Below are positions 27,039-50,474 of a stretch of DNA of 63,000 bases, piece after piece. The notes below the pieces were generated by a model. The model worked only from the letters and a program-made list of their open reading frames with translations, was not told where the DNA came from and did no database searches. A program made the translations under genes and the position numbers. Within the stretch, counting starts at the first letter, position 1; each line of letters opens with the position of its first letter. Origin of the DNA: Candidatus Limnocylindria bacterium (GTDB lineage: Bacteria > Chloroflexota > Limnocylindria > P2-11E). The stretch is taken from NCBI GenBank assembly GCA_038200085.1, contig JBBPYG010000022.1:1-63000 (forward strand). The letters are read 5' to 3'.

Positions 27039-27048
27039 CAACCTTCTA

Positions 27049-34292: not shown

Positions 34293-34898
34293 CTATGACA
34301 GGCGGCGGATGACCCCGATGACCTTGCCCTGGATCCGCACGTCGCGAGCGTAGATCGGCTCCATCGATCCGTTCGCCGGCTGGAGGCGAACGCGCTCGCG
34401 CTCGCGGTACAGGCGCTTGAGGGTCGCGGTGTTGTCCTCGAGGAGCGCGACGACGATATCGCCGTCGCGCGCGGTGTCCTGCTGCTGGATCACGACGTAG
34501 TCGCCGTCGTCGATGTGGTCCTCGATCATCGACTTGCCTCGCACTCGAAGGACGAATGTCTCCCGTCCCGCCGCGAGTTCCCCTGGCACGGATAACGTCT
34601 CGCTTTGATCCTCGTACGCGTAGATCGGCTGGCCCGCGGCGATCTCTCCGATGATCGGAGCGATCACGGCGCGCCCACCGAGCGGCGCCGGCAGCGTCAG
34701 CGCGCGCGACCGTGTGGCCTCCTTCTGGAGGCGCCCCTCGCGCTCGAGCTTGGTCAGGTGGTGGTGAACGGCCGACGTCGAGGCGAGGCCGACCGCCTCG
34801 GCGATCTCCCGGACGCTCGGCGGGTACCCCCGGTCCTCGACCGTCTCGCGGATGAACTCGAGGATGCGCTCACCGCGCTGCTGGTCCTGCTTCGTCAC
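34293..34898 (-). CDS. lexA: LexA repressor
   Basis: YPPSVREIAEAVGLASTSAVHHHL.KLE..G HTH, AAGQP cleavage site, and VRGKSM...VALL.D..ATLKR (Ser/Lys dyad). GTG start. Confidence 0.95.
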   Translation of the reverse strand: MTKQDQQRGERILEFIRETVEDRGYPPSVREIAEAVGLASTSAVHHHLTKLEREGRLQKEATRSRALTLPAPLGGRAVIAPIIGEIAAGQPIYAYEDQSETLSVPGELAAGRETFVLRVRGKSMIEDHIDDGDYVVIQQQDTARDGDIVVALLEDNTATLKRLYRERERVRLQPANGSMEPIYARDVRIQGKVIGVIRRLS

Positions 34899-34904
34899 CC
34901 CGCG

Positions 34905-34933
34905 ACCATACCGAACGTCTGTTCACCTGTCAA
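34905..34933 (-). promoter_or_regulatory. lexA promoter TTGACA-17 nt-TATGGT with a LexA box (CGAACGTCTGTTCA, 34912-34925) in the spacer; the start codon lies 6 nt after the -10
   Basis: Plus-strand tgtcaa at 34928-34933 and accata at 34905-34910. GAAC-N4-GTTC at 34913-34924. Predicted leaderless or near-leaderless transcript. Confidence 0.7.
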
Positions 34934-36325: not shown

Positions 36326-36516
36326 AAGGCCGCGAATCAGGCGGTGGCGCCTTCGGCGTCATCAAGGCCATCCTCGCGATCATCGGCGCGCTCACGGTCA
36401 TGGGCATCCTCGCCGTCGCCGGGTCGGTCCTGGCGTGGGAGCTGGAGCTGCGCAAGAGCGAGCAGGACACCTCGCTGGAGCCGCCGCTGGAGCCGCCGAT
36501 GACGCCGACGGCCTGA
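36322..36516 (+). CDS. Small single-pass membrane protein (64 aa), hypothetical
   Basis: ATGA overlap with the DUF1232 stop. Transmembrane segment FGVIKAILAIIGALTVMGILAVAGSVLAW. Confidence 0.4.
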   Translation: MKGRESGGGAFGVIKAILAIIGALTVMGILAVAGSVLAWELELRKSEQDTSLEPPLEPPMTPTA

Positions 36517-36529
36517 GGGCCATAGCCCG

Positions 36530-36976
36530 GTGCGCGTGATCCTCAAGCGCGAGGTCACCGGGCTGGGGCGGCCGGGGGAGATCAAGGACGTCGCCGACGG
36601 CTATGCCCAGAACTTCCTCGTGCCGCGCGGTCTCGCCGTCGAGGCGAGCGCCGGCGAGCTGCGGCGGATCGCGCAGCAGCGCGCGAGCCAGAAGGCGAAG
36701 GACGAGCGGGCGCAGGTCGAGGCCCAGGGGCTCGCGAAGCGCCTCGAGGCGGTGACCCTCGTGTTCAAGCTGAAGGCAGGCGAGCAGGGCAAGACGTTCG
36801 GCTCGGTCACCACGAAGGACGTCGCGGAAGCGCTCCAGCGCGAGGCCAACGTCAGCGTCGACAAGACGAAGATCCACCTCGAGGAGCCGCTTCGCACGCT
36901 CGGGGTGCATCGCGTCGAGGTGCGCCTCGCGCCCGAGGTGCGCGCGCAGCTCACGGTGGCGGTCGAGCCGGCCTGA
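36530..36976 (+). CDS. rplI: 50S ribosomal protein L9
   Basis: MRVILKREVTGLGRPGEIKDVADGYAQNFLVPRGLA. Confidence 0.95.
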   Translation: MRVILKREVTGLGRPGEIKDVADGYAQNFLVPRGLAVEASAGELRRIAQQRASQKAKDERAQVEAQGLAKRLEAVTLVFKLKAGEQGKTFGSVTTKDVAEALQREANVSVDKTKIHLEEPLRTLGVHRVEVRLAPEVRAQLTVAVEPA

Positions 36977-36978
36977 CC

Positions 36979-38319
36979 TCAGGCTTCGTGCGTCTCGCCG
37001 AGGTCACGGAAACGCGTGAGCTCGGACTGGAAGTGCAGATCGATCTCCGCCGTCGGTCCGTTGCGGTGCTTGGCCAGCTTCAGCCGCACGACGCGGTCCT
37101 CGCGGTCCCGGTGGTCCTTCTGCCAGAGGAAGAGGACCAGGTCGGCATCCTGTTCGATCGACCCGCTGTCGCGGAGGTCGGACAGCGTCGGCTCTGGACC
37201 GCGCGTCTGGATCTGACGAGATAGCTGGGACAGCGCGACGATCGGCACCTCGAGCTCGCGCGCGATCGCCTTGAGTGACCTCGTGATCCGCGCGACCTCC
37301 TGCACGCGGTTCTCGTCATCGCCGACGCCCTCGATCAGCTGGAGGTAGTCGATGACGATGAGGTCGAGGCCGCGCTCCGTCTGGAGGCGCCGCGACTTCG
37401 CGAGGATGTCGGTCACGGTGAGGCGGCTCGACTCCTCGATGTAGATCGGCGCCTGCTGGAGCTGGCTCGAGGCGCCGCCGATCGACTTCATCTCCTCGAG
37501 CGACAGCCTGCCCCGCCGCAACCGGTTCCCGGGGATCTCGGCGGTCATCGACACCAGGCGCTGCACGACCTGCATTTCGCTCATCTCCATCGAGAAGACC
37601 GCGCACGTGCGGCCCTGGACCAGCCCTGCCTCCGCGACCATGCACAGCGCGAGGCTCGTCTTGCCGAGGCCCGGCCGGCCCGCCACAACGATGAGGTCCG
37701 AAGGCTGAAGTCCTCCGGTCTTCTGATCGAGGGTGTCGAGGCCGGTCCTGATGCCGAGCCCGCGATCCTCTACGCGCGCGCTGATCTGCTCGGCGTAGCG
37801 GTGCACCGCGACGTCGAGCGGCACGACGTCGCGGTGGAGCGATGACTCGCTGACGGCGAAGAGGAGATCGCCCGCGTCGCGCACCGCCCGCTCCGCGTCG
37901 TCGCGCGTCAGGGCCAGGCGGGCGATCTCGTTCGCCGCCCCGATGAGCCGGCGCAGGAGCGCGGTGCGCTCGACGATCGCGGCGTACGTCTCCGCGTGCG
38001 CGACGGTCGGGACGTACTGCATCAGGCCCACCAGGAACTGCGCGCCGCCGACGGCCTCGAGGTCGCCTCCCGCCGACAGCTCCGCCTGCACGCTCTGGAA
38101 GCCGATCGCCTCGCCGCGTCCGTCGAGGCGCTCGATCGCGCGGAGCACCGTGCGGTGGGCGTCGCGGGAGAGGTCCGCCGGCGCGACCCGCCCGCGCACG
38201 ATCTCCGCGTAGATGTGCGAGTCGATCAGCAGCGCCCCGAGCAGCGACGCCTCGGCCTCGGGGTTCTCCGGCGGCGGCCGCGGCTCCCGGCGGTCGCGTG
38301 CGCCCACATCGAGGGTCAC
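36979..38319 (-). CDS. dnaB: Replicative DNA helicase DnaB, downstream copy of a tandem pair
   Basis: PENPEAEASLLGALLID, GLQPSDLIVVAGRPGLGKTSLAL, LIVIDYLQLI, SLKAIARELEVPIVALSQLSR, SGSIEQDADLV. GTG 38319 overlaps the stop of the upstream copy (GTGA). Confidence 0.9.
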   Translation of the reverse strand: MTLDVGARDRREPRPPPENPEAEASLLGALLIDSHIYAEIVRGRVAPADLSRDAHRTVLRAIERLDGRGEAIGFQSVQAELSAGGDLEAVGGAQFLVGLMQYVPTVAHAETYAAIVERTALLRRLIGAANEIARLALTRDDAERAVRDAGDLLFAVSESSLHRDVVPLDVAVHRYAEQISARVEDRGLGIRTGLDTLDQKTGGLQPSDLIVVAGRPGLGKTSLALCMVAEAGLVQGRTCAVFSMEMSEMQVVQRLVSMTAEIPGNRLRRGRLSLEEMKSIGGASSQLQQAPIYIEESSRLTVTDILAKSRRLQTERGLDLIVIDYLQLIEGVGDDENRVQEVARITRSLKAIARELEVPIVALSQLSRQIQTRGPEPTLSDLRDSGSIEQDADLVLFLWQKDHRDREDRVVRLKLAKHRNGPTAEIDLHFQSELTRFRDLGETHEA

Positions 38320-39641
38320 AGCGGGATGCCCTCGTCGCTCGCACGGCTGAAGAAGCGCGCCTGCTCGCTCTCGAAGAACAGCTCGAACCGGCCCGTCGGC
38401 CCGTTCCGGTTCTTGGCGACGCTGCCGTGGACCGGCTTCGGCGCGCCCGCCGGCGTCTCGTCCTTGTCGCGCCACAGCATCAGCACGACGTCGGCGTCCT
38501 GCTCGATCGCACCCGACTCGCGCAGCGTGGAGAGCTTCGGCTCAGCCCCAATGTCGCCGGCGGCGCGCGATAGCTGCGAGAGCGCGATGACGACGACGTT
38601 CAGCTCGCGCGCGAGCGACTTGAGGTTGCGAGTGATCGTCGCGATCTCCTGCACGCGGTTCTCCTCGTGCTCGCCGGTCCGCATCAGCTGCAGGTAGTCG
38701 ACGACTATCACGCCGAGGGGACGGTCCGGCCGGCTGGCGCGGCGCGCCTTGGTGCGCAGCTCCATGATCGAGATGCCGGGCGTGTCGTCGAGCAGCACTG
38801 GCAGCCCCATGAGCGCGGCGGCGGCGTCCGTGTCGACGACGTTCTGCGTCCGCATCGCCAGAAGATCGGTGCCGCTGTTCTGCGCGAGGAAGCGCGCCAC
38901 GATCTGTTTCGCGTCCATCTCGAGGGAGAAGACCAGCGTGTTCGTCCCGCGCCTCGCGATGTGATACGCCATCGCCAGGCCGAGGCTCGTCTTCCCGACG
39001 GCCGGGCGCGCGCCGATCACTACCAGGTCCCCGGCGGTGAAGCCCTCGGTGTACGCGTCGATCTCGGGGAAGCCGCTCGCGATGCCGCTGACCTCGAAGG
39101 GGTGCTCCATGCGCTCGGTCAGGTGCTCGTAGTGCTGGTCGAGCGCGCGCCGGATATGTCGCAGCTGGCTCGCGAAGGCTTCGTCGCGGAGCGCGAAGAT
39201 CCGCTGCTCGGCGCGGTCGAGCGTCAGCGCCATGTCGGTCGGCTCGTCGTACGCGTCGGCAGCGATCGCCGTAGCGGCGGCGAGCAGCCGCCGCAGGAGG
39301 GACCGGCCGCGCACCGCGCGGGCGTGGCGTTCGATCTCGACAGCCGTTGGCACGGCATCGACGAGCTCGCGCAGGTAGGCGGCGCCGCCGACGCGGTCGA
39401 GCTCCTCGCGGCGCGCGAGCTCGACCTGGATCGTCAGAGGGTCGATGCGCTCCCTGCGCTCTAGCAGCGCCTGCGCCGCGGCGTAGATCCGCTGGTGGCG
39501 GGCCTCGTAGAAGTCGTCGACGCGCAGCAGGTCGGCGACGCGGAAGATCGCGTCGCGGTCGATCAGCAGCCCGCCGACGACGTGCCGCTCCGCTGCGGGG
39601 TCGTGGGGCGAGGCGCGCTCGGCCGCGGTCTCCAGCGTCAT
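38316..39641 (-). CDS. dnaB: DnaB-family replicative helicase paralog, upstream copy of the tandem pair
   Basis: PHDPAAERHVVGGLLID, GFTAGDLVVIGARPAVGKTSLGL, VIVVDYLQLM, LKSLARELNVVVIALSQLSR, SGAIEQDADVV. Confidence 0.9.
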   Translation of the reverse strand: MTLETAAERASPHDPAAERHVVGGLLIDRDAIFRVADLLRVDDFYEARHQRIYAAAQALLERRERIDPLTIQVELARREELDRVGGAAYLRELVDAVPTAVEIERHARAVRGRSLLRRLLAAATAIAADAYDEPTDMALTLDRAEQRIFALRDEAFASQLRHIRRALDQHYEHLTERMEHPFEVSGIASGFPEIDAYTEGFTAGDLVVIGARPAVGKTSLGLAMAYHIARRGTNTLVFSLEMDAKQIVARFLAQNSGTDLLAMRTQNVVDTDAAAALMGLPVLLDDTPGISIMELRTKARRASRPDRPLGVIVVDYLQLMRTGEHEENRVQEIATITRNLKSLARELNVVVIALSQLSRAAGDIGAEPKLSTLRESGAIEQDADVVLMLWRDKDETPAGAPKPVHGSVAKNRNGPTGRFELFFESEQARFFSRASDEGIPL

Positions 39642-39647
39642 GGAGCT

Positions 39648-39676
39648 GATTTAGAACACCCGTTCGACCGTGTCAA
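39648..39676 (-). promoter_or_regulatory. dnaB-pair promoter TTGACA-17 nt-TAAATC with a LexA box (minus-strand CGAACGGGTGTTCT, 39653-39666) in the spacer; the ATG lies 6 nt after the -10
   Basis: Plus-strand tgtcaa at 39671-39676 and gattta at 39648-39653. GAAC at 39654-39657 and GTTC at 39662-39665. Same architecture as the lexA promoter. Confidence 0.6.
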
Positions 39677-39927
39677 GACCTTCCCCCAAACATGCGGGCA
39701 TTCCCGGCAGCAGCCGACCGCTGCGACTTTCCTCGGCCGGGAACGCTAGGCGGGGGCGGCGCCGAATGCAGCAGACTTGCCTACAGCGGGTTGGCAGACA
39801 TACCCACAGGTTCCAGCGGTTCTCCCAGCGCCGTGCACCGTCGGTCCACCGCCGAAGCCTGGTGACGCCTCCCGCCGTCGATCCAGTGGCCCGGGCGCGC
39901 GAAAGAGATGATCCCTGGAGGTCCGAC

Positions 39928-40836
39928 GTGGCGCAGCGCTTTCTCGTGACCGGCGGTGCCGGCTTCGTCGGCAGCGCCGTCGTCGACCGCCTTCGCGCCG
40001 GCGGAGCCGAGGTGCAGGTCGTCGATGATCTCGTCACCGGCGACCGCGCGAACCTCGCCCCCGGCGTCGTCCTCCACGCAGTCGATATCGCCGACGCGGC
40101 GGCACTCGCGGGCGCGCTGGAGGGCGAGCGCTTCGACGCGGTCGTTCACTGCGCGGCGCGGACGAAGGTCGTGCAGTCCGTGGCCCAACCCGAGCTGTAC
40201 CGGCGCGTGCTCGTCGACGGCACACGGAACGTCGTCGAGGTCGCGCGGCGCGCGAACGCGTCGGCCTTCGTCAACTTCTCGACGGGTGGGGCGCTGTACG
40301 GAGAAACGCCGAGTTGCGCGAGCGAGGACGCCCCCGCGCGGCCCGAGTCGCCGTATGGCGCGTTCAAGGAAGAGGCGGAGCGCATCGTCGCCGACTCCGG
40401 CCTGGTAGCGACCACGCTGCGCCCGGCGAACATCTACGGTCCACGGCAGCGCACGGACCTCGAGGGTGGCGTCATCGCGGTCTTCTTCGGCTGCTGGCGG
40501 AGGGGCGAGCCGTTGACGGTGTTCGGCGATGGGAGCGCGGAGCGTGACTACGTGTACGTGGGCGACGTCGCCGAAGCGGTGGCGGCCGCGATCGAGCGCG
40601 CGGCGTTGAGCACGTACAACGTCGGCACGGGGATCGCGACGTCGGTCGACCAGGTCATCGCCGCCATGACGTCGCTGCTGGGGCCGCCCGCCGGCGTGAC
40701 GCACGCGCCGTCGCGCGGCGGCGAGCTCCAGCGGTCGTGCCTCGACGCGTCGAAGGCGGCCCGCGATCTCGGCTGGAAGCCACGGACCTCGCTCGGCGAA
40801 GGACTGCGGCTCACCGCCGCCTCCACGAGGGCGTAG
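39928..40836 (+). CDS. NAD-dependent epimerase/dehydratase (UDP-glucose 4-epimerase-like SDR)
   Basis: FLVTGGAGFVGSAVV, SPYGAFK (YxxxK). GTG 39928 preceded by CTGGAGG. Confidence 0.85.
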   Translation: MAQRFLVTGGAGFVGSAVVDRLRAGGAEVQVVDDLVTGDRANLAPGVVLHAVDIADAAALAGALEGERFDAVVHCAARTKVVQSVAQPELYRRVLVDGTRNVVEVARRANASAFVNFSTGGALYGETPSCASEDAPARPESPYGAFKEEAERIVADSGLVATTLRPANIYGPRQRTDLEGGVIAVFFGCWRRGEPLTVFGDGSAERDYVYVGDVAEAVAAAIERAALSTYNVGTGIATSVDQVIAAMTSLLGPPAGVTHAPSRGGELQRSCLDASKAARDLGWKPRTSLGEGLRLTAASTRA

Positions 40837-40869: not shown

Positions 40870-42132
40870 GTGCCCGTGACCGCGATCGTCGGCGCGCAGT
40901 GGGGCGACGAAGGCAAGGGAAAGATCACCGACCTGCTCGCGCAGGACGCCGACCTCGTCATCCGTTTCCAGGGCGGCAACAACGCCGGGCACACCATCGT
41001 CAACCGGCACGGCACCTTCAAGCTTCACCTCGTTCCCTCGGGCATCTTCAATCCGAACGCGCTGTGCATCGACGGGCCGGGCATGGTCATCGACCTGGTC
41101 GCGCTCTGCGAGGAGCTCGCGCACCTGGAGTCGCGGGGCATCCCGACCGCCAACTTTCGCGTTTCCGACCGCGCGCACCTGCTGATGCCGTGGCACGTGG
41201 CGCTCGACAGGCTCGACGAGCGCGAGCGCGGCCGCCAAGCGCTCGGCACGACGGGCAAGGGCGTCGGGCCTGCGTACGCCGACAAGGTCGCGCGCCACGG
41301 CATCCAGGTGAGCGAGATCCGCGATGAGGCGCGTTTCCGCGCGCGGGTCGCGCACGAGCTCGTCACGAAGAACGCGATCCTCGAGCGCTTCGGCGACGCG
41401 CCGCTCGATCCCGAACGCGTCGCCGACGGGGTGCTGCGCGCGGCGGCCACGCTCGGCGACCGGATCGCGGACACGCTCGGGCTGGTCGAGCAGGCGCTGG
41501 CCCGCGACGCGAGGATCCTGCTCGAAGGCCAGCTCGGCGCCATGCGCGACCTCGACTGGGGGATCTACCCGTACGTCACCTCGTCCAATCCGCTCGCCGG
41601 AGGAGCCGCCGTCGGTGCCGGAGTGCCGCCGCGCGCGATCACGCGCGTCGTCGGCGTCGTGAAGGCCTACTCGACCGCCGTCGGCGAGGGCCCGATGCCG
41701 ACGGAGCTGTCGGGACCAGAGGCCGACGCGCTCCGCGAGCGCGCCGGCGAGTACGGCGCGACCACCGGCAGGCCGCGGCGTGTGGGCTGGTTCGACGCGG
41801 TCGCCCCGCGCCACGCCCACCGTCTGAACGCCTTCACCGAGCTTGCCGTGACGAAGCTCGACGTGCTGGACGTCTACGACGACATCCCGTTCTGCGCCGC
41901 GTACGAGGTCGACGGCGCGAGGACGACGGACATGCCGCCGACGGCGCTCCTCGAGCGCGCCCGCCCCTGCTACGAGCGCCTGCCAGGGTGGCACGAACCG
42001 ATCACCGACTTCGCCGATCGGGCCGCTCTCCCGCCCGCGGCCGCGGCCTACCTGCAGCGCATCGAGGAGACCGTCGGCGCGCCGATCGGCATGGTCGGCG
42101 TAGGGCCCGAGCGCGAGGCGACGCTGCTCTGA
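40870..42132 (+). CDS. purA: Adenylosuccinate synthase
   Basis: VGAQWGDEGKGKITD...FQGGNNAGHT...TTGKGVGPAY...GTTGRPRR.GW. Confidence 0.95.
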   Translation: MPVTAIVGAQWGDEGKGKITDLLAQDADLVIRFQGGNNAGHTIVNRHGTFKLHLVPSGIFNPNALCIDGPGMVIDLVALCEELAHLESRGIPTANFRVSDRAHLLMPWHVALDRLDERERGRQALGTTGKGVGPAYADKVARHGIQVSEIRDEARFRARVAHELVTKNAILERFGDAPLDPERVADGVLRAAATLGDRIADTLGLVEQALARDARILLEGQLGAMRDLDWGIYPYVTSSNPLAGGAAVGAGVPPRAITRVVGVVKAYSTAVGEGPMPTELSGPEADALRERAGEYGATTGRPRRVGWFDAVAPRHAHRLNAFTELAVTKLDVLDVYDDIPFCAAYEVDGARTTDMPPTALLERARPCYERLPGWHEPITDFADRAALPPAAAAYLQRIEETVGAPIGMVGVGPEREATLL

Positions 42133-42186
42133 AAGCAGTCGCGCCGCGAGGCCCTTCGCGGGTACACTCGAGGAGGTGAGGCGCCT

Positions 42187-43308
42187 GTGAGGGAGGACCG
42201 CATCGTCCGCGAAGGCCTCACCTTCGACGACGTCCTCCTCATTCCCGCCCGAAGCGACGTTCTCCCCACCGAGGTCTCCACCAGGTCGCGTCTCACGCGC
42301 GAGATCTCGCTCGATGTGCCGATCGTCTCCGCCGCGATGGATACGGTGACCGAGGCCGAGATGGCCATCGCGCTCGCGAAGCTCGGCGGCATCGGCGTCA
42401 TCCACCGCAATCTCTCCATCGCCGATCAGGTCGCGCAGTGCGACAGCGTCAAGGCCGCCGGCGTGCCCGTGGCTGCCGCGATCGGCGTTGCCGGCGACGC
42501 CGATGAGCGCGCCGCGGCGCTGGTCGCGGCGGGGGTGGATCTCATCGTCGTCGACACCGCGCACGGCCACTCCGTCAGCGTCATCCGCATGGTCGAGAAG
42601 GTGAAGGCACGGCACCGCGTGCAGGTCATGGCGGGGAACGTGGCGACGGCTGAGGCCACGCTCGAGCTCGTCGCCGCGGGCGCCGACGCGGTGAAGGTCG
42701 GCATGGGTCCCGGGGCGATCTGCACGACACGCATCGTCGCCGGCACGGGCATGCCGCAGATCAGCGCGGTGCTCGAATGCGCGGAGGCCGCGGCGAAGGA
42801 CGACGTTCCCATCTGCGCGGACGGCGGGATCCAGTACTCGGGCGACATCGCGAAGGCGATCGGCGCCGGGGCGTCCAGCGTCATGCTCGGCGGACTGTTC
42901 GCGGGCGTGGACGAGGCGCCGGGCGACGTCATCCAGACGTCGCAGGGCCGCTTCAAGGCGTACCGCGGCATGGGATCGCTCGGCGCGATGAAGGTCCGCA
43001 GCGGCAGCCGCGACAGGTACGGTCAGTCCGACGTCGGCGAGTTCAGCAAGCTCGTTCCGGAGGGGGTCGAGGGCAGCGTGCGCGCCGCGGGGCCGCTCGC
43101 GCCGCTGGTCCACCAGCTCGTCGGGGGCCTTCGCGCGGGCATGGGCTACTCGGGCGCGCGCACGATCGACGAACTGCGCACGAGCGCGCGCTTCGTGCGC
43201 ATCTCGAGGGCGGGGCTGCGCGAGTCGCACCCGCACGACATCCGCATCACCGAGGACGCGCCGAACTACAGCCTCGCGAAAGCGCGGTCAGGGCAGGGCG
43301 GCGAGTGA
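42187..43308 (+). CDS. guaB: IMP dehydrogenase lacking the CBS/Bateman subdomain
   Basis: [28 protein letters not shown] is followed after about 20 aa by VAAAIGV...[21 protein letters not shown] (catalytic Cys), [18 protein letters not shown]. 373 aa versus the usual roughly 490. Confidence 0.9.
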
Positions 43309-43335
43309 GCGGAACGCCGGGCGGGCGACCCTAGC

Positions 43336-44949
43336 GTGGCAGGCGCCGGGCTGCCCCGACCTACGACGGCCGGGGCGGGACCCGGTGCGCCGCCCAGGAC
43401 GACGCGCGAGACGATCGCGATCCTCGACTACGGGTCGCAGTACACGCAGCTCATCGCGCGCCGCGTGCGCGAGTCGCGCGTCTATTGCGAGATCTTTCCG
43501 CACGACGTGACCGCGCCCGAGCTGCGCGAGCGGGGCGTCGCGGGCGTGATCCTCTCCGGCGGACCCGCGAGTGTCTACGCCGCCGCGGCGCCGCGGATCG
43601 ACCCGGCGATCCTTTCGGGCGAATTCCGCGTTCTCGGCATCTGCTACGGGATGCAGCTGATGACCCTCACGCTCGGAGGCGAGGTCGGCGCCGAGGGGAC
43701 GAGCGAATTTGGCCCAGCCGCGCTCGAGATCACCGATCCGTCCGGGCTGTTCGAGGGCCTCGGGGCGAGCGAACGCGCGTGGATGAGCCACGGCGACTCG
43801 GTCCGGGCGCTGCCCGCGGGTTTCCACGCCACCGCGCGGACGTCGCGCCTCCCGATCGCGGCGATGAGCGATGGCGAGCGCCGCTTCGGGTTGCTGTTCC
43901 ACCCGGAGGTCGTGCATACCCCGCGCGGCGCGGAGGTGATCCGCAACTTCCTGTTCCGCGTCTGCGGTTGCGCCGGCGACTGGACGCCGGCCGCGTTCGT
44001 CGACGAGGCGGTCGAGGAGCTGCGCCGCACCATGGGCGACCGGCACGCGATCTGCGCCCTCTCCGGCGGCGTCGATTCCGCGGTGGCCGCGGCACTTGTC
44101 GCGCGCGCCATCGGGGACCGCCTCACGTGCGTCTTCATCGACACTGGTCTGCTGCGCGAGGGTGAGGGGGCGCAGGTCGTCGCGACGTTCGGCCCGCGCC
44201 TGCGCCTCGTCGCGGTCGACGCGTCCGAGCGGTTCCTCAGCAAGCTCGCGGGCGAGGCCGACCCGGAGCGCAAGCGCGCGATCATCGGCGAGGAGTTCGT
44301 GCGCTGCTTCGAGGAGGCCGCGCTGCGTCACCTGCCGGCCGATGCCTCGAACGGGCGATCTCTAATGGTGCAGGGGACGATCTATCCCGACGTCATCGAG
44401 TCGCGCTCGCGCGAATCGATGACGAGCGTGCGCATCAAGACGCACCACAACGTGGGCGGGCTGCCTGAAGTCATGGCGCTCACGGTCGTCGAGCCCCTGC
44501 GCCGCCTGTTCAAGGACGAGGTGCGGCGCGTCGGCGCGGAGCTCGGCATCCCCGAGGACATCCTGTGGCGGCATCCGTTCCCCGGCCCCGGCCTGGCCGT
44601 GCGCGTCGTCGGACCGGTGGACCGACCCTCGCTCGATGCCCTGCGGCGCTGCGACGCGATCTTCCTCGAGGAGCTGCGCGCCGCGGGCCTGTACCGCGAC
44701 ATCGCGCAGGCGTTCGCCGTGCTGACGCCCGTGCGCAGCGTCGGCGTGATGGGCGACGGGCGCACGTACGGATCCCTCGCGGCGCTGCGCGCGGTGACCA
44801 CCGAGGACTTCATGACGGCGGACTGGGCGCGGCTTCCGTACGATCTGCTCGCGCGGGTGTCCGCGCGCATCGTCAACGAGGTGCCCGAGGTGAACCGCGT
44901 CGTGTACGACATCTCGAGCAAGCCGCCGGCGACGATCGAATGGGAGTGA
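43336..44949 (+). CDS. guaA: GMP synthase (glutamine-hydrolysing)
   Basis: ILDYGSQYTQLIARRVRE, GICYGMQL, CALSGGVDSAVAA, HHNVGGLP, and C-terminal PPATIEWE. The N-terminal extension from GTG 43336 is uncertain. Confidence 0.95.
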   Translation: MAGAGLPRPTTAGAGPGAPPRTTRETIAILDYGSQYTQLIARRVRESRVYCEIFPHDVTAPELRERGVAGVILSGGPASVYAAAAPRIDPAILSGEFRVLGICYGMQLMTLTLGGEVGAEGTSEFGPAALEITDPSGLFEGLGASERAWMSHGDSVRALPAGFHATARTSRLPIAAMSDGERRFGLLFHPEVVHTPRGAEVIRNFLFRVCGCAGDWTPAAFVDEAVEELRRTMGDRHAICALSGGVDSAVAAALVARAIGDRLTCVFIDTGLLREGEGAQVVATFGPRLRLVAVDASERFLSKLAGEADPERKRAIIGEEFVRCFEEAALRHLPADASNGRSLMVQGTIYPDVIESRSRESMTSVRIKTHHNVGGLPEVMALTVVEPLRRLFKDEVRRVGAELGIPEDILWRHPFPGPGLAVRVVGPVDRPSLDALRRCDAIFLEELRAAGLYRDIAQAFAVLTPVRSVGVMGDGRTYGSLAALRAVTTEDFMTADWARLPYDLLARVSARIVNEVPEVNRVVYDISSKPPATIEWE

Positions 44950-45067
44950 GCCGCGTGAGTTGGCGCTCTCCTCGGCACGGCGTGGCGCGCGCGAGGCGAG
45001 CGGACGGATCGCCGCGAACGTCCGGACCCCATGGCCCCGCGGCGCGCGAGCGGCGAACGGACCAGGC

Positions 45068-46426
45068 GTGAAACGGCTGCTCGGACGCGACAAGGTATTC
45101 GACCTCATCCGCGAGCAGCGCGCTGCGCGCAGCCCGGGCCGCGGCGCGGGCGCGCCGGGGCTCAACTGCCTCGTCGTTGGCGGCGACGGGCGCGCGTACG
45201 CGATCGCGTGGCGCCTCGCGCGCGACGCGAGCGTCACGACGATCGACGCGGTCCCGGGCAACGGCGGCATGGCGCTCTTCGCGCGCGTGCTCGACATCCC
45301 CGCGGACGGCGATGCGCTCGAGCAGCACGTCGCCTCCGCGCGCATCGACCTCGCGATCGTGGGGCCCGACGACCTCGTCGCGGCGGGACTTGGCGACCGC
45401 CTGCGGCGCGCCGGGATCGCGGTCGTGGCCCCCTCGCGCGACGCCGCGAAGATCGAGTGGAGCAAGCGCTTCGCGAAGGAGCTGATGGACGAGGCGGGGG
45501 TGCCGACCGCCGCCTGGACCGCGTACCCAGGCGTCGCGGCCGCGCGCGAAGCGCTCGAAGGGCGCGACGGACCCGTCGTGGTGAAGGCGGACGGCCTCGC
45601 GCGCGGCAAGGGCGTCGTCGTCGCCGGCGACCGCGCGGCGGCGCTCGCCGCGCTCGATGCCAGCGAACTCCAGCACGGCGCGGTCCTCCTCGAGGAGCCG
45701 CTCGCCGGCGAGGAGGCGTCATTGCAGACGCTCGTCGACGGCGAGACCGTCGTCGCGCTTCCGCCCGCGCGCGACCACAAGCGCGCCGGCGACGGCGACA
45801 CCGGCCCGAACACCGGAGGCATGGGCGCCGTCTCCCCGACGTCGGTCTTGCCCGACGACGAGGCGCGCGACGTGGCCGAGGCGACGGTGGCGCCCGTCGC
45901 GCGGGCGCTCGCCCGCCGCGGCACACCGTATCGCGGGGTGCTGTACGCGGGGCTGATGCGCACCGCTGGCGGCTTCGCCGTGCTCGAGTACAACGCGCGG
46001 TTCGGCGATCCCGAGGCGGAGGTGGTACTCCCGCGCGTCGAAGGCGACTTCGCCGGCCTGATGCGGGCGCTCGGCGACGGCAGGCTCGCTGAGCACGTCG
46101 CGGCCTCTCCGCCGCGATTCAGCGAGCGCGCGTACGTCGACGTGGTCGTGTGCGCGGAGGGCTATCCCGGGACCCCGCGCACCGGCGATCGCGTGCTGGG
46201 CCTCGAGGACCTTCCCGACGGCGTGTACGCGTTCCACGGCGCGACGCGCCGCACGCCTGATGGCACCGTCGCGACGACCGGAGGGCGCGCGGTGCACGTC
46301 GTCGCGGGTGGCGAGAGTGTCGGCGCCGCGCGGATCCTCGCCTACGAAGCGGCCGCGCGCATCCGCTTTCCGGGGGCCTTCTACCGGCATGACATCGCCG
46401 CGCGGGAAGCGGTGCCGGTCTCGTGA
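45068..46426 (+). CDS. purD: Phosphoribosylamine-glycine ligase
   Basis: VVGGDGRAYAIAW...PGNGG...VVKADGLARGKGV...DHKR.GDGD.GPNTGGMG...YAGLM. Start (GTG 45068) uncertain. Confidence 0.9.
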   Translation: MKRLLGRDKVFDLIREQRAARSPGRGAGAPGLNCLVVGGDGRAYAIAWRLARDASVTTIDAVPGNGGMALFARVLDIPADGDALEQHVASARIDLAIVGPDDLVAAGLGDRLRRAGIAVVAPSRDAAKIEWSKRFAKELMDEAGVPTAAWTAYPGVAAAREALEGRDGPVVVKADGLARGKGVVVAGDRAAALAALDASELQHGAVLLEEPLAGEEASLQTLVDGETVVALPPARDHKRAGDGDTGPNTGGMGAVSPTSVLPDDEARDVAEATVAPVARALARRGTPYRGVLYAGLMRTAGGFAVLEYNARFGDPEAEVVLPRVEGDFAGLMRALGDGRLAEHVAASPPRFSERAYVDVVVCAEGYPGTPRTGDRVLGLEDLPDGVYAFHGATRRTPDGTVATTGGRAVHVVAGGESVGAARILAYEAAARIRFPGAFYRHDIAAREAVPVS

Positions 46427-46571
46427 CGCCGCTGGCCGTGAGCATCGAGGCAGCAATGTGCTGTTTCATCACGCGATCCCGCGATCGATGGCTGTCTGAT
46501 GAGCGCAGGTCGCGAGCGGAGGAAGTGATGTGTAGCTCGGAACGCGCGACCGCGCGAACGGTGAGCCGATC

Positions 46572-47051
46572 GTGAGCGCCCGTGTCGCCATCGTCATGGG
46601 GTCCGCATCGGACCGCGAGGTCATGCAGGTCGCCGCGCAGACGCTCGACGGACTGGGCGTCGAGACCGATGTGCGCGTGCTCTCCGCCCATCGCACGCCC
46701 GACGCGCTGCACGCGTGGGCGCGGGGACTCGAGGGGAAAGGCGTCAAGGTCGTCATAGCCGGGGCCGGCGGCGCCGCGCACCTCGCCGGCGCGGTCGCTG
46801 CCGTCACGACGCTCCCCGTGATCGGCGTTCCCCTGGCATCCCCGAACGCGATCGCGGGCGGCCTCGACGCGCTGCTCTCCACCGTGCAGATGCCGCGCGG
46901 CGTGCCCGTCGCCACGGTCGCGGTCGGGGAGTCAGGCGCCGCGAACGCGGGCATCCTCGCGGCGCAGATCCTCGCGACGGGCGATCCGGCGCTCGCCGAA
47001 CGCGTGTCGGCCCTGCGCGAATCGATGGCGGAGAAGGTCCTGCGCGGATGA
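46572..47051 (+). CDS. purE: N5-carboxyaminoimidazole ribonucleotide mutase (class I PurE)
   Basis: [10 protein letters not shown]...VLSAHRTP...[12 protein letters not shown]...PVIGVP. Confidence 0.95.
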
Positions 47052-48454
47052 CGCTGCACGACCGCTTCGACGCCGTCTCGCCTCTCGACTCGCGCTTCTA
47101 TGGCGGCGACGCGGAGCTGTACGCGGCGCTGCATCCGTACCTGTCCGAGGAAGGGGCGGTGGGCGCGATGGCGCGCGCGGAGAGCGCTCTGGCCCGCGCG
47201 CTCGCGCAGGAGGGCGTCGCGCCGCGCGAGGCCGCGGAGGCGATCGCGTCCGCCGCGCATGGGATCGGCGCCGCCGAGGTGTACGCGGAGGAGGCGCGCG
47301 TGGGCCACAACGTGCGCGCGCTGGTGAACCTCATCCGCGAGCGCGTGCCGGAGGACGCGCGGCGCTTCGTGCACCTGGGCGCGACCTCGATGGACATCGT
47401 CGACACCGCCAACGCCTGGCGGTACCGCGAGTGCGTCACCCGCGTGGTGCTGCCGCGGCTCGGCGTGCTCGCGGCGCGCCTCATCGCGCTCGCCGAGAAC
47501 GAGGCGGACACCGCTCAGGCCGGCCGCACCCACGGCCAGCACGCCGTGCCGATCACGTTCGGGTTCGCCGCCGCCGAGTACGTGAGCCGCCTCGGCGGAC
47601 GGATCGAGCGCGTGCGTGACGCCGCGGCGCGGCTGCGCGGGAAGCTGTCGGGCGCGGTCGGCGCGCACAACGCGGCCTCGCTGCTGGTGCCCGATCCGCG
47701 CGCGCTGGAGGTCCGCTACCTCGCCTCGCTTGGGCTCGAGCCCGGGCCGCACTCGACGCAGATCGTCGAGCCCGAGGCCTGGGCCGACCTCGCGCACGCG
47801 CACGTCACCTGCCTCGGCGTGATGGCGAACTTCGCCGACGACATGCGCCACCTGCAGCGGACGGAGATAGCGGAGATCGCGGAGGGGTTCGGCGCGCGCC
47901 AGGTCGGCTCATCGACGATGCCCCAGAAGCGCAACCCCGTCGCGTTCGAGAACGTGAAGTCGATCTGGAAGGCGTTCATGCCGCGCGTCGTCACGAACTA
48001 CATGGACCAGATCAGCGAGCACCAGCGCGACCTCACCAACTCGGCCTCGCAGCGATTCACGGGGGAGATCCTCGCGGCCACGGCGTACGCGGCGACGCGG
48101 CTGGCCGCGTCACTCGACGGCATCCGCGTCGACCGCGAGCGGATGGCCGCGAACCTTGCCCTTTCCCGGGGCGGCATCGCGGCCGAGGCGCTATACGTCC
48201 TGCTCGCGAAGCACGGGCACGCGGACGCGCACGAGGCCGTGCGGAGCCTGACGCTGGAGGCCGACCGCGCGGCCATGCCGCTCCTCGTCGTGGCCGCCCG
48301 CGACGGCGATGTCGGCGCGCTGGTGGCGAAGATGGCGCCCGGCGAGCGCGCGATGCTCGAGCGTCCCGAGGAGTACCGCGGCCTCGCGCCCGAGATCGCG
48401 CGCGAGGTCGCCGCGACCTGGCGCGCGCGACTCGCGGAGTTCCTGCCCGAATGA
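47048..48454 (+). CDS. purB: Adenylosuccinate lyase
   Basis: [46 protein letters not shown] overlap with purE. Confidence 0.95.
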
Positions 48455-48512
48455 CCACGAACACCCGCGGGTCCGGCGGCCCGGACCTGACGGCGGCGGA
48501 TGGGGAAGTGAC

Positions 48513-49400
48513 ATGACCGCGACGCTCGTACGTTCCCAGATCCCGGGCGCGGCGCTGTTCCGCGAAGGCAAGGTCCGCGAGGTGTACGAGGCCGGCGAAG
48601 AGGCGCTCGTGATCGTCGCGAGCGACAGGCTCTCCGCCTTTGACGTCGTCCTGCCGACGCCGATCCCCGACAAGGGGCGCGTCCTCACGCAGCTCTCGAA
48701 CTTCTGGTTCGGACGGACCGCGGGCGTCGTCCCGAATCACCTCGTGGAGACCGACCTCGCGCGTTTCCCCGAGCCTTTCGCCTCCCGGCCGGAACTCGAG
48801 GGGCGCGCGGTGCTGGTGCGGCGCTGCGACCGGGTCGACATCGAATGCGTGGCCCGCGGCTACCTCGCCGGATCCGGCTGGGCCGAGTACCGGCAGAGCG
48901 GCACGCTCGCCGGCGAGCCGCTGCCGCGCGGCCTCGAGGAGTCGGCGCAGCTCCGCGAGCCCGTCTTTACTCCCGCGACGAAGGCCGTCACCGGGCACGA
49001 CGAGAACATCTCCCGCGCGCAGCTGGCCGCGCTGGTGGGTCGCGGGCTTGCCGAACGGCTCGAGGAGGTCACGCTGGCTCTTTACCGCCACGCGCACGCG
49101 TACGCGCTCGGGCGCGGGCTCGTGCTGGCGGACACGAAGTTCGAGTTCGGCTTCGCGGGCGACGAGCTGCTGCTCATCGACGAGACGCTGACACCCGACT
49201 CCTCGCGGTACTGGGACTCGCGCACGTACCGCCCGGGCGCTTCCCCGCCGTCGTACGACAAGCAGTTCGTGCGCGATTTCCTCGTGCGGAGCGGCTGGGA
49301 CCGCGAGCCGCCGGGACCCGCCCTTCCGGAGGACGTGGTGGCCGGCACGAGCGAGCGCTATCGCGAGTGTTACCGGCTGCTCACCGGGTCCGCGCTCTGA
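48513..49400 (+). CDS. purC: SAICAR synthase
   Basis: GKVREVY...ASDRLSAFD...LADTKFEFG...LIDE.LTPDSSR.W. Confidence 0.95.
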   Translation: MTATLVRSQIPGAALFREGKVREVYEAGEEALVIVASDRLSAFDVVLPTPIPDKGRVLTQLSNFWFGRTAGVVPNHLVETDLARFPEPFASRPELEGRAVLVRRCDRVDIECVARGYLAGSGWAEYRQSGTLAGEPLPRGLEESAQLREPVFTPATKAVTGHDENISRAQLAALVGRGLAERLEEVTLALYRHAHAYALGRGLVLADTKFEFGFAGDELLLIDETLTPDSSRYWDSRTYRPGASPPSYDKQFVRDFLVRSGWDREPPGPALPEDVVAGTSERYRECYRLLTGSAL

Positions 49401-49497
49401 ACGCGCCGCGCGCGGACGGGATGGCGGGCGACACCGCGCGGTCCACGCGTAGCGCCCGCAAGGGCCAACGCCGGCAGGCGGCCGCGAGGCAGCTAGC

Positions 49498-50468: not shown

Positions 50469-50474
50469 AAGGGT

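What the first reader, a model, noticed from the sequence alone, without database searches (positions are those of the whole stretch)
36979..39641. Two diverged, translationally coupled dnaB genes in tandem on the chromosome
Two full-length DnaB-family helicase genes lie head to tail: 38316-39641 (441 aa) and 36979-38319 (446 aa). The downstream GTG (38319-38317) overlaps the upstream TGA (38318-38316), forming GTGA. Both keep the N-terminal DnaB domain, Walker A (GARPAVGKTS / GRPGLGKTS), Walker B (VVDYLQLM / VIDYLQLI), the SQLSR block and SG.IEQDAD. Yet they are strongly diverged from each other, so this is not a recent duplication or an assembly artefact. Bacteria normally carry one chromosomal dnaB, and extra copies usually ride on phages or plasmids. 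Here the flanks are core genes (rplI, purA) and no mobile-element genes are adjacent. A stoichiometrically coupled pair suggests a hetero-oligomeric helicase, or a helicase plus a DnaB-derived loader or regulator.
Basis: partly seen in the sequence, partly recalled or inferred. Interest (0 to 1): 0.7.

Follow-up and report, generated by a model that had tools for sequence, protein, structure and literature searches.

The report
Conserved coupled pair of DnaB helicases
A whole lineage of soil Chloroflexota (class Limnocylindria) has replaced its single replicative-helicase gene with two diverged, overlapping and LexA-controlled dnaB genes that are always kept together, which suggests but does not prove a two-subunit bacterial replicative helicase.

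Summary
Two full-length DnaB genes lie head to tail on the minus strand: dnaB1 at 38316-39641 and dnaB2 at 36979-38319. They share a GTGA stop/start overlap and are 36% identical.

Both pass the NCBIfam DnaB equivalog cut-off and keep every ATPase, arginine-finger and DNA-loop residue. dN/dS in the closest pairs is about 0.03-0.07.

This is not an artefact or a mobile element. The pair, the 4-nt overlap and the flanking genes recur in 23 of 23 intact pairs from Candidatus Limnocylindria genomes, including one deeper branch.

A related lineage has a single dnaB in the same lexA/rplI neighbourhood. That gene is 44-46% identical to both copies.

Divergence is reciprocal. DnaB1 keeps a canonical N-terminal head but has a 6-7-residue deletion that halves the loader-docking helix. 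DnaB2 keeps the canonical C-terminal domain but has a diverged N-terminal head.

A perfect LexA box sits in the dnaB1 promoter in 24 of 24 loci.

Best reading, at about 50% confidence: the two proteins form a hetero-hexameric replicative helicase. Not tested: physical interaction, a third dnaB elsewhere in the genome, and loader genes.

The parts
38316..39641 (-). dnaB1, 441 aa. DnaB-family helicase with a canonical N-terminal head but a shortened docking helix in the C-terminal domain.
   Evidence: ORF. Pfam DnaB and DnaB_C. TIGR00665 score 424.8 against a cut-off of 385. Best PDB match is Geobacillus DnaB 2r6a, E = 1e-92. AF2 model has pLDDT 85 and its top Foldseek hits are DnaB structures. 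Orthologues are 72-81% identical in Limnocylindria MAGs.
36979..38319 (-). dnaB2, 446 aa. DnaB-family helicase with a canonical C-terminal domain but a diverged N-terminal head (DFY changed to DLS).
   Evidence: ORF. Pfam, where the DnaB N-terminal domain scores 72.7 bits against 103 for DnaB1, and DnaB_C scores 296.8 against 255.6. TIGR00665 score 436.5. PDB match to 2vye/2r6a, E = 6e-92. AF2 model pLDDT 85.6. Orthologues are 72-77% identical.
38316..38319 (-). GTGA overlap: the dnaB2 start codon overlaps the dnaB1 stop codon, the geometry expected for translational coupling.
   Evidence: Sequence. The 4-nt overlap is conserved in 23 of 23 intact pairs and also in the deeper branch L114.
39654..39665 (-). 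LexA (Cheo-type) operator GAACGGGTGTTC, 13-24 nt upstream of the dnaB1 ATG, inside the promoter spacer.
   Evidence: The window has 3 perfect GAAC-N4-GTTC sites against 0.61 expected, and one of them lies 15 nt upstream of lexA itself. A perfect box lies upstream of dnaB1 in 24 of 24 loci, with invariant arms and a variable N4. Of the 43 boxes in 22 pair loci (209 kb), 22 lie upstream of dnaB1 and 16 upstream of lexA. Four more sit at the locus edge where lexA would be expected, and one is elsewhere.
39648..39676 (-). Putative promoter: TTGACA (39676-39671), a 17-nt spacer holding the LexA box, then the -10-like TAAATC (39653-39648). Only 6 nt separate it from the ATG, so the mRNA may be leaderless or have a very short leader.
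   Evidence: Read directly from the sequence. The equivalent TAGACT/TAGAAT/TATACT follows the box in the orthologous loci. The strict consensus scan did not call a promoter here, so this is inference.
38811..38831 (-). Shortened docking/determinant helix (DH) of DnaB1, residues 271-277. A 6-7-residue deletion removes the position of the conserved aromatic residue (Trp273 in Geobacillus, Trp294 in E. coli).
   Evidence: HMMER places the gap at Geobacillus residues 273-278. The deletion is present in all DnaB1-type sequences, including the deep ones. AF2 gives a 7-residue helix (271-277) in DnaB1 and a 16-residue helix (274-289) in DnaB2. The helix at E. coli 291-302 / Geobacillus 272-284 is the loader-binding DH (PMC6391071; PMC9912922).
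38017..38265 (-). Diverged N-terminal globular head of DnaB2, roughly residues 19-101.
   Evidence: Identity of the N-terminal head to the single-copy relatives is 34% for DnaB2 and 49% for DnaB1. For the C-terminal domain it is 54% for DnaB2 and 50% for DnaB1.
36530..36976 (+). rplI (ribosomal protein L9), convergent with dnaB2 and 2 nt from its stop codon. Serves as a positional marker of the ancestral rplI-dnaB locus.
   Evidence: Pfam L9 N-terminal and C-terminal domains. rplI is adjacent in 26 pair loci and in the single-copy loci.
34293..34924 (-). lexA (34293-34898) with its own GAACGTCTGTTC operator (34913-34924). The likely regulator of the dnaB1-dnaB2 operon.
   Evidence: Pfam LexA_DNA_bind and Peptidase_S24. 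Box. The box lies 26-33 nt upstream of lexA in all 16 pair loci that include lexA.

Best explanation
dnaB1 and dnaB2 are the two products of an old tandem duplication of the housekeeping replicative-helicase gene at the ancestral rplI/lexA-linked locus. The duplication happened in one lineage of Candidatus Limnocylindria (Chloroflexota).

The two genes are transcribed as one LexA-repressible operon from a promoter whose spacer holds a LexA box. They are translated in a coupled manner through the 4-nt stop/start overlap, which should give roughly equal amounts of each protein.

Both proteins are catalytically complete DnaB subunits. I infer that they co-assemble into one hetero-hexameric ring, most simply an alternating (DnaB1-DnaB2)3. 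That arrangement matches the trimer-of-dimers N-terminal collar that every DnaB homohexamer already has.

In this model each paralogue has specialised. DnaB1 keeps the canonical N-terminal head, which belongs to the primase-binding collar, but has lost half of the docking helix that loaders bind together with the neighbour's linker helix. DnaB2 keeps the canonical C-terminal domain and docking helix, but its N-terminal head has diverged. A ring of this kind would carry three canonical and three altered linker-helix/docking-helix modules instead of six identical ones.

Shown here: gene structure, conservation, strict co-occurrence, intact motifs, purifying selection, reciprocal domain divergence, the LexA box, and a single-copy gene in the same neighbourhood in a related lineage. 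Inferred: co-transcription, coupled translation, LexA repression, co-assembly, subunit order and stoichiometry, and the consequence for loaders.
For: (1) Both proteins are bona fide DnaBs. They pass the TIGR00665 equivalog cut-off and match full-length DnaB crystal structures.

(2) In a 111-sequence alignment the core catalytic residues are invariant in both paralogues: the P-loop glycine, the catalytic Glu (Geobacillus E241), Walker B Asp, the SQLSR Gln, the DNA-loop Gly, and the Lys/Arg finger K410/R412. Walker A K217/T218 and R374 are at least 90% conserved there and invariant within the two paralogues.

(3) The pair, the 4-nt overlap and the synteny (epimerase | dnaB1-dnaB2 | rplI, DUF1232, mscS, lexA, alkZ, dinB) recur in 23 of 23 intact pairs. 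Two further pairs carry an intein in dnaB1. The sample includes GTDB species representatives and a deep branch, L114, where DnaB1 is 59% and DnaB2 53% identical to the window proteins. No locus with enough flank has only one copy.

(4) Both copies are equally and strongly constrained. dN/dS is 0.03-0.07 in the closest pairs, and within-clade identity is 77% for both.

(5) Single-copy dnaB genes, one cluster labelled Candidatus Limnocylindrales, lie beside lexA, DUF1232, rplI and dinB. They are 44-46% identical to both DnaB1 and DnaB2, while DnaB1 and DnaB2 are only 36% identical to each other. Each of these loci holds its own rplI and lexA, so they come from other organisms.

(6) Divergence is reciprocal. 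N-terminal head identity to the single-copy type is 49% for DnaB1 and 34% for DnaB2. C-terminal domain identity is 50% for DnaB1 and 54% for DnaB2. DnaB1 alone has the docking-helix deletion.

(7) Neither copy is phage-like. The best phage match is 40% identity or less, and both score far below the phage_DnaB and SPI-7 model cut-offs.

(8) None of 58 more distant DnaB loci fetched in the same scan has a second dnaB within 5 kb.

(9) The docking-helix/linker-helix module is the common loader-binding and inter-subunit element (PMC6391071; PMC9912922).
Against: There is no direct evidence that the two proteins touch. No multimer prediction or co-evolution analysis was possible.

Adjacent paralogous ring ATPases do not always co-assemble. 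From my own knowledge, PilT and PilU are an example. A 4-nt overlap is also common between adjacent operon genes in general.

In one metagenomic contig of the deep branch (the P0419 contig) an 81-aa ORF separates the two genes, so tight coupling is not universal.

The neighbour-joining tree recovers each paralogue clade at 100% bootstrap but does not recover DnaB1 and DnaB2 as sisters (1%). Deep nodes are unresolved. In-situ duplication therefore rests on synteny and on two shared derived residues, not on the tree.

Both copies keep all residues needed to work as homohexamers.

I could not search whole genomes for a third dnaB or for loaders.
Confidence: 0.5

Rival explanations
1. The operon encodes two separate homohexameric helicases with divided labour. 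One would act in DnaA- and loader-dependent initiation at oriC. The other would act in damage-induced replication restart or repair. They would be co-regulated by LexA but would not co-assemble.
For: Both copies keep every catalytic, arginine-finger and DNA-loop residue and a complete domain architecture, so each could form a working ring. The operon carries a conserved LexA operator and sits among SOS-type genes (lexA, dinB, alkZ), which fits a damage-response role. In one contig the genes are separated by a small ORF. Extra DnaB copies on plasmids and in phytoplasma mobile units exist as stand-alone genes (papers listed).
Against: The two genes always co-occur and the stop/start overlap is conserved in 23 of 23 pairs. 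No lineage was seen that kept only one copy. The reciprocal, complementary divergence means neither copy alone looks fully canonical. The single dnaB of the related lineage is also tied to a LexA-box region, so LexA linkage does not mark an accessory copy.
Confidence: 0.3
2. One paralogue is the translocating helicase. The other is a DnaB-derived accessory factor, such as a ring-opener, loader or regulator, that binds the helicase but does not itself act as the fork helicase. It might replace DciA or DnaC/I.
For: The loader-binding docking helix is half deleted in DnaB1, and the primase-collar head is diverged in DnaB2. No loader gene was seen among the window ORFs scanned with Pfam. Loader content is not uniform in Chloroflexi: one dnaC/I domestication event is reported there (PMC5109545).
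Against: Walker A and B, the catalytic Glu, the Gln sensor, the Arg finger and the DNA-binding loop are conserved in both copies across the clade. dN/dS and within-clade identity are equal for the two. A non-translocating factor would be expected to lose some of these. Only part of a 63-kb window was scanned, so the absence of a loader means little.
Confidence: 0.1
3. The pair is an SOS-inducible accessory system, and a third, canonical housekeeping dnaB lies elsewhere in these genomes. One copy might have been acquired horizontally and inserted beside the other.
For: A LexA operator lies in the promoter. The tree does not recover DnaB1 and DnaB2 as sisters, and each is as far from the other (36%) as from DnaBs of other phyla (about 39%). 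Whole genomes could not be searched.
Against: The pair occupies the classical rplI-linked dnaB position. The related lineage has one dnaB in the same gene neighbourhood. In the metagenome scan, hits 59% or more identical to the single-copy type that had enough flank carried their own lexA, and many their own rplI. Hits at 53-55% come from loci of 40-60% GC, against 66-71% GC for the pair loci. No plausible vertically inherited third copy appeared. Neither copy resembles phage, plasmid or island DnaBs. Inteins, typical of replicative DnaB, occur in both paralogues.
Confidence: 0.08

Closest known systems
Bacterial replicative helicase DnaB (TIGR00665; Geobacillus stearothermophilus 2R6A/4ESV, E. 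coli, Vibrio cholerae)
   Same: Both proteins share its domain architecture (N-terminal domain, linker helix, RecA-like C-terminal domain) and all its catalytic motifs. Each is about 38-40% identical to Geobacillus DnaB. The genes sit next to rplI, and inteins occur at the classical RE|SG site.
   Different: There are two diverged paralogues instead of one gene, and they are coupled by a stop/start overlap. DnaB1 lacks half of the docking helix. DnaB2 has a diverged N-terminal head. The operon lies behind a LexA operator.
Eukaryotic MCM2-7, and the multiple MCM paralogues of some archaea
   Same: They show how a replicative ring helicase can evolve from a homohexamer into a hetero-oligomer of specialised paralogues that keep their ATPase sites (my own knowledge).
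   Different: They belong to a different superfamily (AAA+, not RecA-like) and have the opposite polarity. MCM2-7 has six distinct subunits rather than two. Hetero-assembly is proven for MCM2-7 and only inferred here.
ClpP1/ClpP2 and F1/V1-ATPase alpha3beta3-type paralogue pairs
   Same: These are operon-encoded paralogues of a ring-forming protein that became obligate partners. In alpha3beta3, RecA-fold subunits alternate around the ring (my own knowledge).
   Different: In alpha3beta3 one subunit has lost catalysis, whereas here both keep it. No assembly data exist for the DnaB pair.
Extra dnaB copies on phages, plasmids, genomic islands and phytoplasma mobile units (TIGR03600 phage_DnaB, NF040583 SPI-7-type; pQBR plasmids; phytoplasma dnaB1/dnaB2)
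   Same: They give more than one DnaB-family gene per genome.
   Different: Those copies travel with mobile elements and are not coupled to the chromosomal gene. Here both copies lie in a conserved core locus. Both score far below the phage and SPI-7 cut-offs and have no phage relative above 40% identity.
DNA-damage-inducible dnaB of Mycobacterium tuberculosis
   Same: It is a replicative-helicase gene induced by DNA damage and associated with an SOS box (PMC8151990).
   Different: It is a single gene, and that paper reports partial PafBC dependence. Here a perfect Cheo-type box lies within the promoter spacer of a two-gene operon, with the same geometry as at lexA itself.

Membership tests
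DnaB replicative helicase family (TIGR00665 / PF00772 + PF03796) | N-terminal DnaB domain, linker and RecA-like C-terminal domain, scoring above the curated equivalog cut-off | tested here: met
   Both proteins score 424.8 and 436.5 bits against a cut-off of 385.25. Pfam finds both domains in both proteins. The DnaB1 AF2 model's top Foldseek hits are DnaB structures, with 38-39% identity for the Geobacillus entries.
DnaB replicative helicase family | Walker A Lys/Thr, catalytic Glu, Walker B Asp, Gln sensor (SQLSR), DNA-binding loop (RESG), and trans-acting Lys/Arg finger | tested here: met
   All are invariant in the 12-sequence alignment of both paralogues. In the 111-sequence alignments they are invariant or at least 90% conserved. 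They align to Geobacillus K216/T217, E241, D320-region, Q362-region and K418/R420.
DnaB replicative helicase family | Forms a hexameric ring with 5'-3' helicase activity and is essential for replication | not testable with these tools
   This needs biochemistry or genetics. No cultured Limnocylindria were used here.
DnaB replicative helicase family | Full-length docking (determinant) helix that pairs with the neighbour's linker helix and binds loaders | tested here: inconclusive
   DnaB2 has a 16-residue helix. DnaB1 has only 7 residues and lacks the conserved aromatic position. The functional consequence is unknown.
Phage, plasmid or island DnaB (TIGR03600 phage_DnaB; NF040583 SPI-7 type) | Score above the model cut-off, a mobile-element neighbourhood, and close phage relatives | tested here: not met
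   Scores are 339.6/329.7 against a cut-off of 498.65, and 303.7/294.2 against 655. The best phage identity is 40% or less. The flanks are core genes and are syntenic in more than 25 genomes.
Hetero-oligomeric ring helicase built from paralogues (works like MCM2-7 or alpha3beta3) | Paralogues are co-expressed and strictly co-inherited | tested here: met
   The genes are in tandem with a 4-nt overlap in 23 of 23 intact pairs. A single upstream promoter/operator region is present. No locus holds only one copy.
Hetero-oligomeric ring helicase built from paralogues | Physical co-assembly in a defined stoichiometry | not testable with these tools
   Only single-chain structure prediction was available. 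No interaction data exist.
Hetero-oligomeric ring helicase built from paralogues | Complementary specialisation of the subunits | tested here: met
   Domain divergence is reciprocal relative to the single-copy relatives: N-terminal head 49% against 34%, C-terminal domain 50% against 54%. The docking-helix deletion occurs only in DnaB1.
LexA (SOS) regulon member | LexA operator in the promoter, conserved across species and matching the operator at lexA itself | tested here: met
   A perfect GAAC-N4-GTTC lies upstream of dnaB1 in 24 of 24 loci. It lies upstream of lexA in all 16 pair loci that include lexA, at the same distance from the start codon. Only 1 of 43 boxes lies away from both genes and from the locus edges where lexA is expected.
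LexA (SOS) regulon member | LexA binding and damage-induced de-repression | not testable with these tools
   This needs EMSA, reporter assays or transcriptomics.
DnaB-derived non-catalytic loader or regulator | Loss of ATPase or DNA-translocation residues in one copy | tested here: not met
   No such loss is seen in either copy.

The most novel reading that the evidence does not exclude
Limnocylindria use an obligate hetero-hexameric (DnaB1-DnaB2)3 replicative helicase. This would be the first bacterial counterpart of the homo- to hetero-hexamer transition seen in MCM2-7. The built-in trimer-of-dimers asymmetry of DnaB would have been fixed genetically. Only three of the six linker-helix/docking-helix modules would remain canonical loader sites. 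The whole helicase would be under direct LexA control.
Probability: 0.4. Interest if true: 0.85.

Novelty: new variant of a known kind. Interest (0 to 1): 0.66.

Why it matters
Every studied bacterial replicative helicase is a homohexamer of one DnaB. Its two alternating N-terminal conformations and its six identical loader-binding modules are central to current models of loading and primase coupling.

A lineage that has kept two specialised, co-translated DnaB subunits for a long time would be a natural experiment. It would show which protomer positions need which functions. It would also give a bacterial example of how hetero-oligomeric replicative helicases such as MCM2-7 can arise by duplication and reciprocal degeneration.

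The idea can be tested directly by co-expressing two genes.

There are two practical consequences. The replicative helicase of an abundant soil and freshwater class appears to be wired into the SOS regulon. And dnaB is not a single-copy gene in this lineage.

Tried and rejected
1. Assembly artefact or recent duplication. Rejected: the copies are 36% identical, and the same pair occurs in more than 25 independent assemblies.

2. Mobile-element or phage origin. Rejected on flanks, synteny, model scores and phage searches.

3. A degenerate or pseudogene copy. Rejected: motifs are invariant and dN/dS is 0.03-0.07 for both.

4. Neighbour-joining tree with 200 bootstraps to show DnaB1 and DnaB2 are sisters. 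Inconclusive: each clade has 100% support, the sister grouping 1%, and deep DnaB nodes are unresolved. A first run was also confounded because P0251 was included twice. The search for shared derived residues gave only two, E371 and W394, both also common in the single-copy type.

5. P0242, which looked like a 65%-identical DnaB1 relative with a C-terminal extension. It appears to be a chimeric gene call or assembly and was dropped.

6. Strict sigma-70 and terminator scan of 36400-40200. It found no promoter and one terminator-like hit inside dnaB1, at the chance level. The promoter proposed here comes from reading the sequence and comparing loci.

7. Literature searches for tandem or paired chromosomal dnaB, Limnocylindria with DnaB, and dnaB1/dnaB2. 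They returned only plasmid (pQBR) and phytoplasma cases and work on two helicase rings loaded at oriC.

9. A frameshift fusion of the two ORFs was considered. The loci share no slippery sequence at the junction. This was not pursued further.


Full report
**Observation**

Two ORFs lie head to tail on the minus strand of the window. dnaB1 spans 38316-39641 (ATG start, 441 aa). dnaB2 spans 36979-38319 (446 aa). Its GTG start (38319-38317) overlaps the dnaB1 TGA stop (38318-38316), giving GTGA.

Both proteins contain the Pfam DnaB N-terminal and DnaB_C domains. Both exceed the curated cut-off of the NCBIfam DnaB equivalog TIGR00665, at 424.8 and 436.5 bits against 385.25. Both fall far below the phage_DnaB and SPI-7-type cut-offs. 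They are 36% identical to each other. Each matches Geobacillus DnaB (2R6A/2VYE) equally well, with E about 1e-92.

The flanks are core genes. rplI (36530-36976, plus strand) is convergent with dnaB2 and lies 2 nt from its stop. DUF1232, mscS, lexA, alkZ and dinB follow on that side. On the other side are a divergent NAD-dependent epimerase, purA, an IMPDH-family gene (guaB-like), guaA and a long purine-biosynthesis cluster.

**Whose genome, and is the pair conserved?**

The best hits of both proteins are MAG proteins labelled Candidatus Limnocylindria or Chloroflexota. DnaB1 hits are 72-81% identical and DnaB2 hits 72-77%. Contigs that encode DnaB1 orthologues always carry a DnaB2 orthologue immediately downstream, in the same gene neighbourhood.

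A scan of GTDB species-representative genomes with DnaB2 returned 25 Limnocylindria-type loci. Three of them are deposited under obviously wrong bin labels. Every locus with enough upstream sequence has dnaB1 directly upstream.

In 23 of 23 intact pairs the dnaB2 start overlaps the dnaB1 stop by 4 nt. The overlap is ATGA in most loci, GTGA in several and TTGA once. This fixes the dnaB2 start codon and shows that the coupling geometry is under selection or at least very stable. Two further loci have the same arrangement with an intein in dnaB1.

The divergent epimerase and the convergent rplI flank the pair in 27 and 26 loci respectively. A deeper branch, in which DnaB1 is 57-59% and DnaB2 about 53% identical to the window proteins, has the same arrangement and the same overlap (L114, GCA_030157145.1). 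One JGI contig of that branch has an 81-aa ORF between the two genes.

**Origin of the pair**

A profile search of 1.84 billion cluster representatives found the DnaB1 and DnaB2 clusters and their deep relatives. It also found P0243, a cluster that is about equally similar to both, at 45% and 44%. P0243 is labelled Candidatus Limnocylindrales.

Metagenomic loci encoding P0243-like proteins at 59-92% identity contain one dnaB within the fetched flanks of up to 5 kb. That gene lies beside lexA, DUF1232, rplI and dinB, the same neighbourhood as the pair. The arrangement is either box-lexA->dnaB or lexA<-box->DUF1232-rplI-dnaB. These loci carry their own rplI and lexA, only 44-60% identical to those of the window. 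They therefore belong to other organisms and represent the same chromosomal position.

Mean identities across groups are as follows:
- DnaB1 to DnaB2: 36%
- DnaB1 or DnaB2 to the single-copy type: 45-46%
- DnaB1 or DnaB2 to DnaBs of other lineages: 39%
- Single-copy type to other lineages: 47%

The simplest reading is a tandem duplication of the resident gene in one Limnocylindria lineage, followed by fast divergence of both copies and then stasis.

The tree does not prove this. Neighbour joining gives 100% support for each paralogue clade but does not join them, and deep DnaB nodes are unresolved. Only two shared derived residues were found, and both also occur in the single-copy type.

Hits 53-55% identical to the single-copy type come from loci of 40-60% G+C, against 66-71% for the pair loci. 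They are therefore not hidden third copies of the pair-bearing lineage. None of the 58 more distant DnaB loci from the same scan has a second dnaB within the fetched flanks. Neither copy resembles any phage DnaB above 40% identity.

**State of the two proteins**

In a 12-sequence alignment of both paralogues, every catalytic residue is invariant: Walker A GKT/S, the catalytic Glu, the Walker B Asp, the SQLSR Gln, the RESG DNA-binding loop and the trans-acting Lys/Arg finger. In the 111-sequence alignments with other Chloroflexota DnaBs they are invariant or at least 90% conserved.

dN/dS between the closest species pairs is 0.03-0.07 for both genes. Within-clade identity is 77% for both. Inteins occur at the classical RE|SG site in some orthologues of both paralogues. 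Neither copy is decaying.

The divergence is reciprocal.
- DnaB1 keeps a canonical N-terminal head (49% identical to the single-copy type; Pfam 103 bits). Its C-terminal domain is the more diverged (50%).
- DnaB2 keeps the more canonical C-terminal domain (54%; Pfam DnaB_C 297 against 256 bits). Its N-terminal head has diverged (34%; 72.7 bits). The conserved DFY is replaced by DLS in all DnaB2 sequences.
- All DnaB1-type sequences carry a 6-7-residue deletion at Geobacillus residues 273-278.

AlphaFold2 models have pLDDT of 85 and 86. They give a 7-residue helix at this position in DnaB1 (residues 271-277) and a 16-residue helix in DnaB2 (274-289). This is the docking or determinant helix (E. 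coli 291-302, Geobacillus 272-284). Together with the linker helix of the neighbouring protomer, it forms the module bound by DnaC, lambda P and DciA. It normally carries a conserved Trp (PMC6391071; PMC9912922). The DnaB1 model's top Foldseek hits are DnaB structures.

**Regulation**

The 12-mer GAACGGGTGTTC lies at 39654-39665, 13-24 nt upstream of the dnaB1 ATG. It sits in the 17-nt spacer between a perfect TTGACA (39676-39671) and a -10-like TAAATC (39653-39648). Only 6 nt then precede the ATG.

The window has three perfect GAAC-N4-GTTC sites against 0.61 expected. One of them lies 15 nt upstream of lexA. A perfect box is present upstream of dnaB1 in 24 of 24 loci, with invariant arms and a variable centre. 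In 23 loci it lies 23-39 nt from the start codon and is followed by TAGACT, TAGAAT or a similar hexamer.

There are 43 perfect boxes in 22 pair loci (209 kb). Of these, 22 lie upstream of dnaB1 and 16 upstream of lexA at the same distance. Four more sit at the locus edge where lexA is expected, and one is elsewhere.

The operon is therefore very probably LexA-repressed and possibly leaderless. Both points are inferences from sequence. The single-copy relatives also tie dnaB to a LexA-box region. M. tuberculosis dnaB is damage-inducible as well (PMC8151990). LexA control therefore does not by itself mark the pair as accessory.

**Interpretation**

I favour a hetero-hexameric replicative helicase built from both subunits, most simply an alternating (DnaB1-DnaB2)3, with confidence of about 0.5. 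The reasons are strict co-inheritance, conserved coupling, equal constraint, full catalytic competence of both copies, and reciprocal loss of canonical features.

This fits the known trimer-of-dimers asymmetry of DnaB rings. It would leave three canonical and three altered linker-helix/docking-helix modules.

The rivals are:
- Two separate homohexamers with divided roles (0.3).
- A helicase plus a DnaB-derived accessory factor (0.1), weakened by the intact motifs in both copies.
- An SOS-inducible accessory pair with a third housekeeping dnaB elsewhere (0.08), weakened by the positional evidence but not excluded.

**What is known**

Literature searches found multiple dnaB copies only on plasmids and in phytoplasma mobile units. 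Nothing was found on coupled chromosomal pairs or on Limnocylindria.

Each protein is an ordinary member of the DnaB family. The conserved two-gene arrangement, with reciprocal specialisation and a LexA operator, is a new variant of that kind.

**Limits**

No interaction test, multimer model, maximum-likelihood tree or whole-genome scan for a third dnaB or for loaders could be run. These are listed as next steps.

Noticed in passing
window 39654-39665, 34913-34924, 19266-19277; loci L001-L027 and L114: The window has three perfect LexA-type boxes (GAAC-N4-GTTC) against 0.61 expected. They lie upstream of dnaB1, of lexA, and of a flavoprotein (UbiX-like) ORF at 19312-19917. The dnaB1 and lexA boxes are conserved at the same distance from the start codon in all orthologous loci, each followed by a -10-like hexamer and only about 6-8 nt before the start. 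This suggests leaderless SOS promoters.
   Followed up: yes
loci L035-L055 (single-copy dnaB): In the related single-dnaB lineage, lexA lies immediately upstream of dnaB on the same strand, with the LexA box in front of lexA. In L052 and L054 the box lies between divergent lexA and DUF1232-rplI-dnaB. The link between dnaB and LexA therefore seems to hold across the class.
   Followed up: partly
L008 and L015 (dnaB1); P0241, P0245, P0413 (DnaB2-type); P0025, P0063, P0078 and others (DnaB1-type): Inteins of about 140-420 residues interrupt some orthologues of both paralogues at the same RE|SG site in the DNA-binding loop motif.
   Followed up: partly
window 36976-36979; L001, L010 and others: rplI and dnaB2 converge with only 2 nt between their stop codons in the window, and with 0-4 nt of overlap in other loci. 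That leaves no room for a terminator, so convergent transcripts would overlap.
   Followed up: no
window 50469-51326: An ORF with a HepT-like ribonuclease (toxin) domain in its C-terminal half sits inside the otherwise contiguous purine-biosynthesis cluster (purA, IMPDH-family/guaB-like, guaA, purD, purB, purC, purQ ... purF, purM, purN; about 40870-56955).
   Followed up: no
L012 (DASPWX010000081.1), L013 (DATLPP010000110.1), L022 (DATJHW010000017.1): Contigs with the Limnocylindria-type dnaB pair and its synteny are deposited in MAGs labelled Bathyarchaeia archaeon, Candidatus Udaeobacter and Candidatus Saccharimonadales. These are probably binning contaminants.
   Followed up: no
P0242 (JGI, 576 aa): This protein is DnaB1-like for about 345 residues. 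It then switches to an unrelated-looking DnaB C-terminus plus a 118-residue tail. It is probably a chimeric assembly or gene call.
   Followed up: partly
JGI contig of P0419 (sample 3300067032; no DNA available): In this deep-branch contig an 81-aa ORF lies between dnaB1 and dnaB2, and its end abuts the dnaB2 start. This is the only exception seen to the direct 4-nt overlap.
   Followed up: no
window 19312-19917 and 26809-28455: A UbiX-like flavoprotein gene, preceded by the third LexA-type box, lies near a UbiD-family decarboxylase gene. A branched-chain amino-acid ABC transporter and a GntR regulator lie between them.
   Followed up: no
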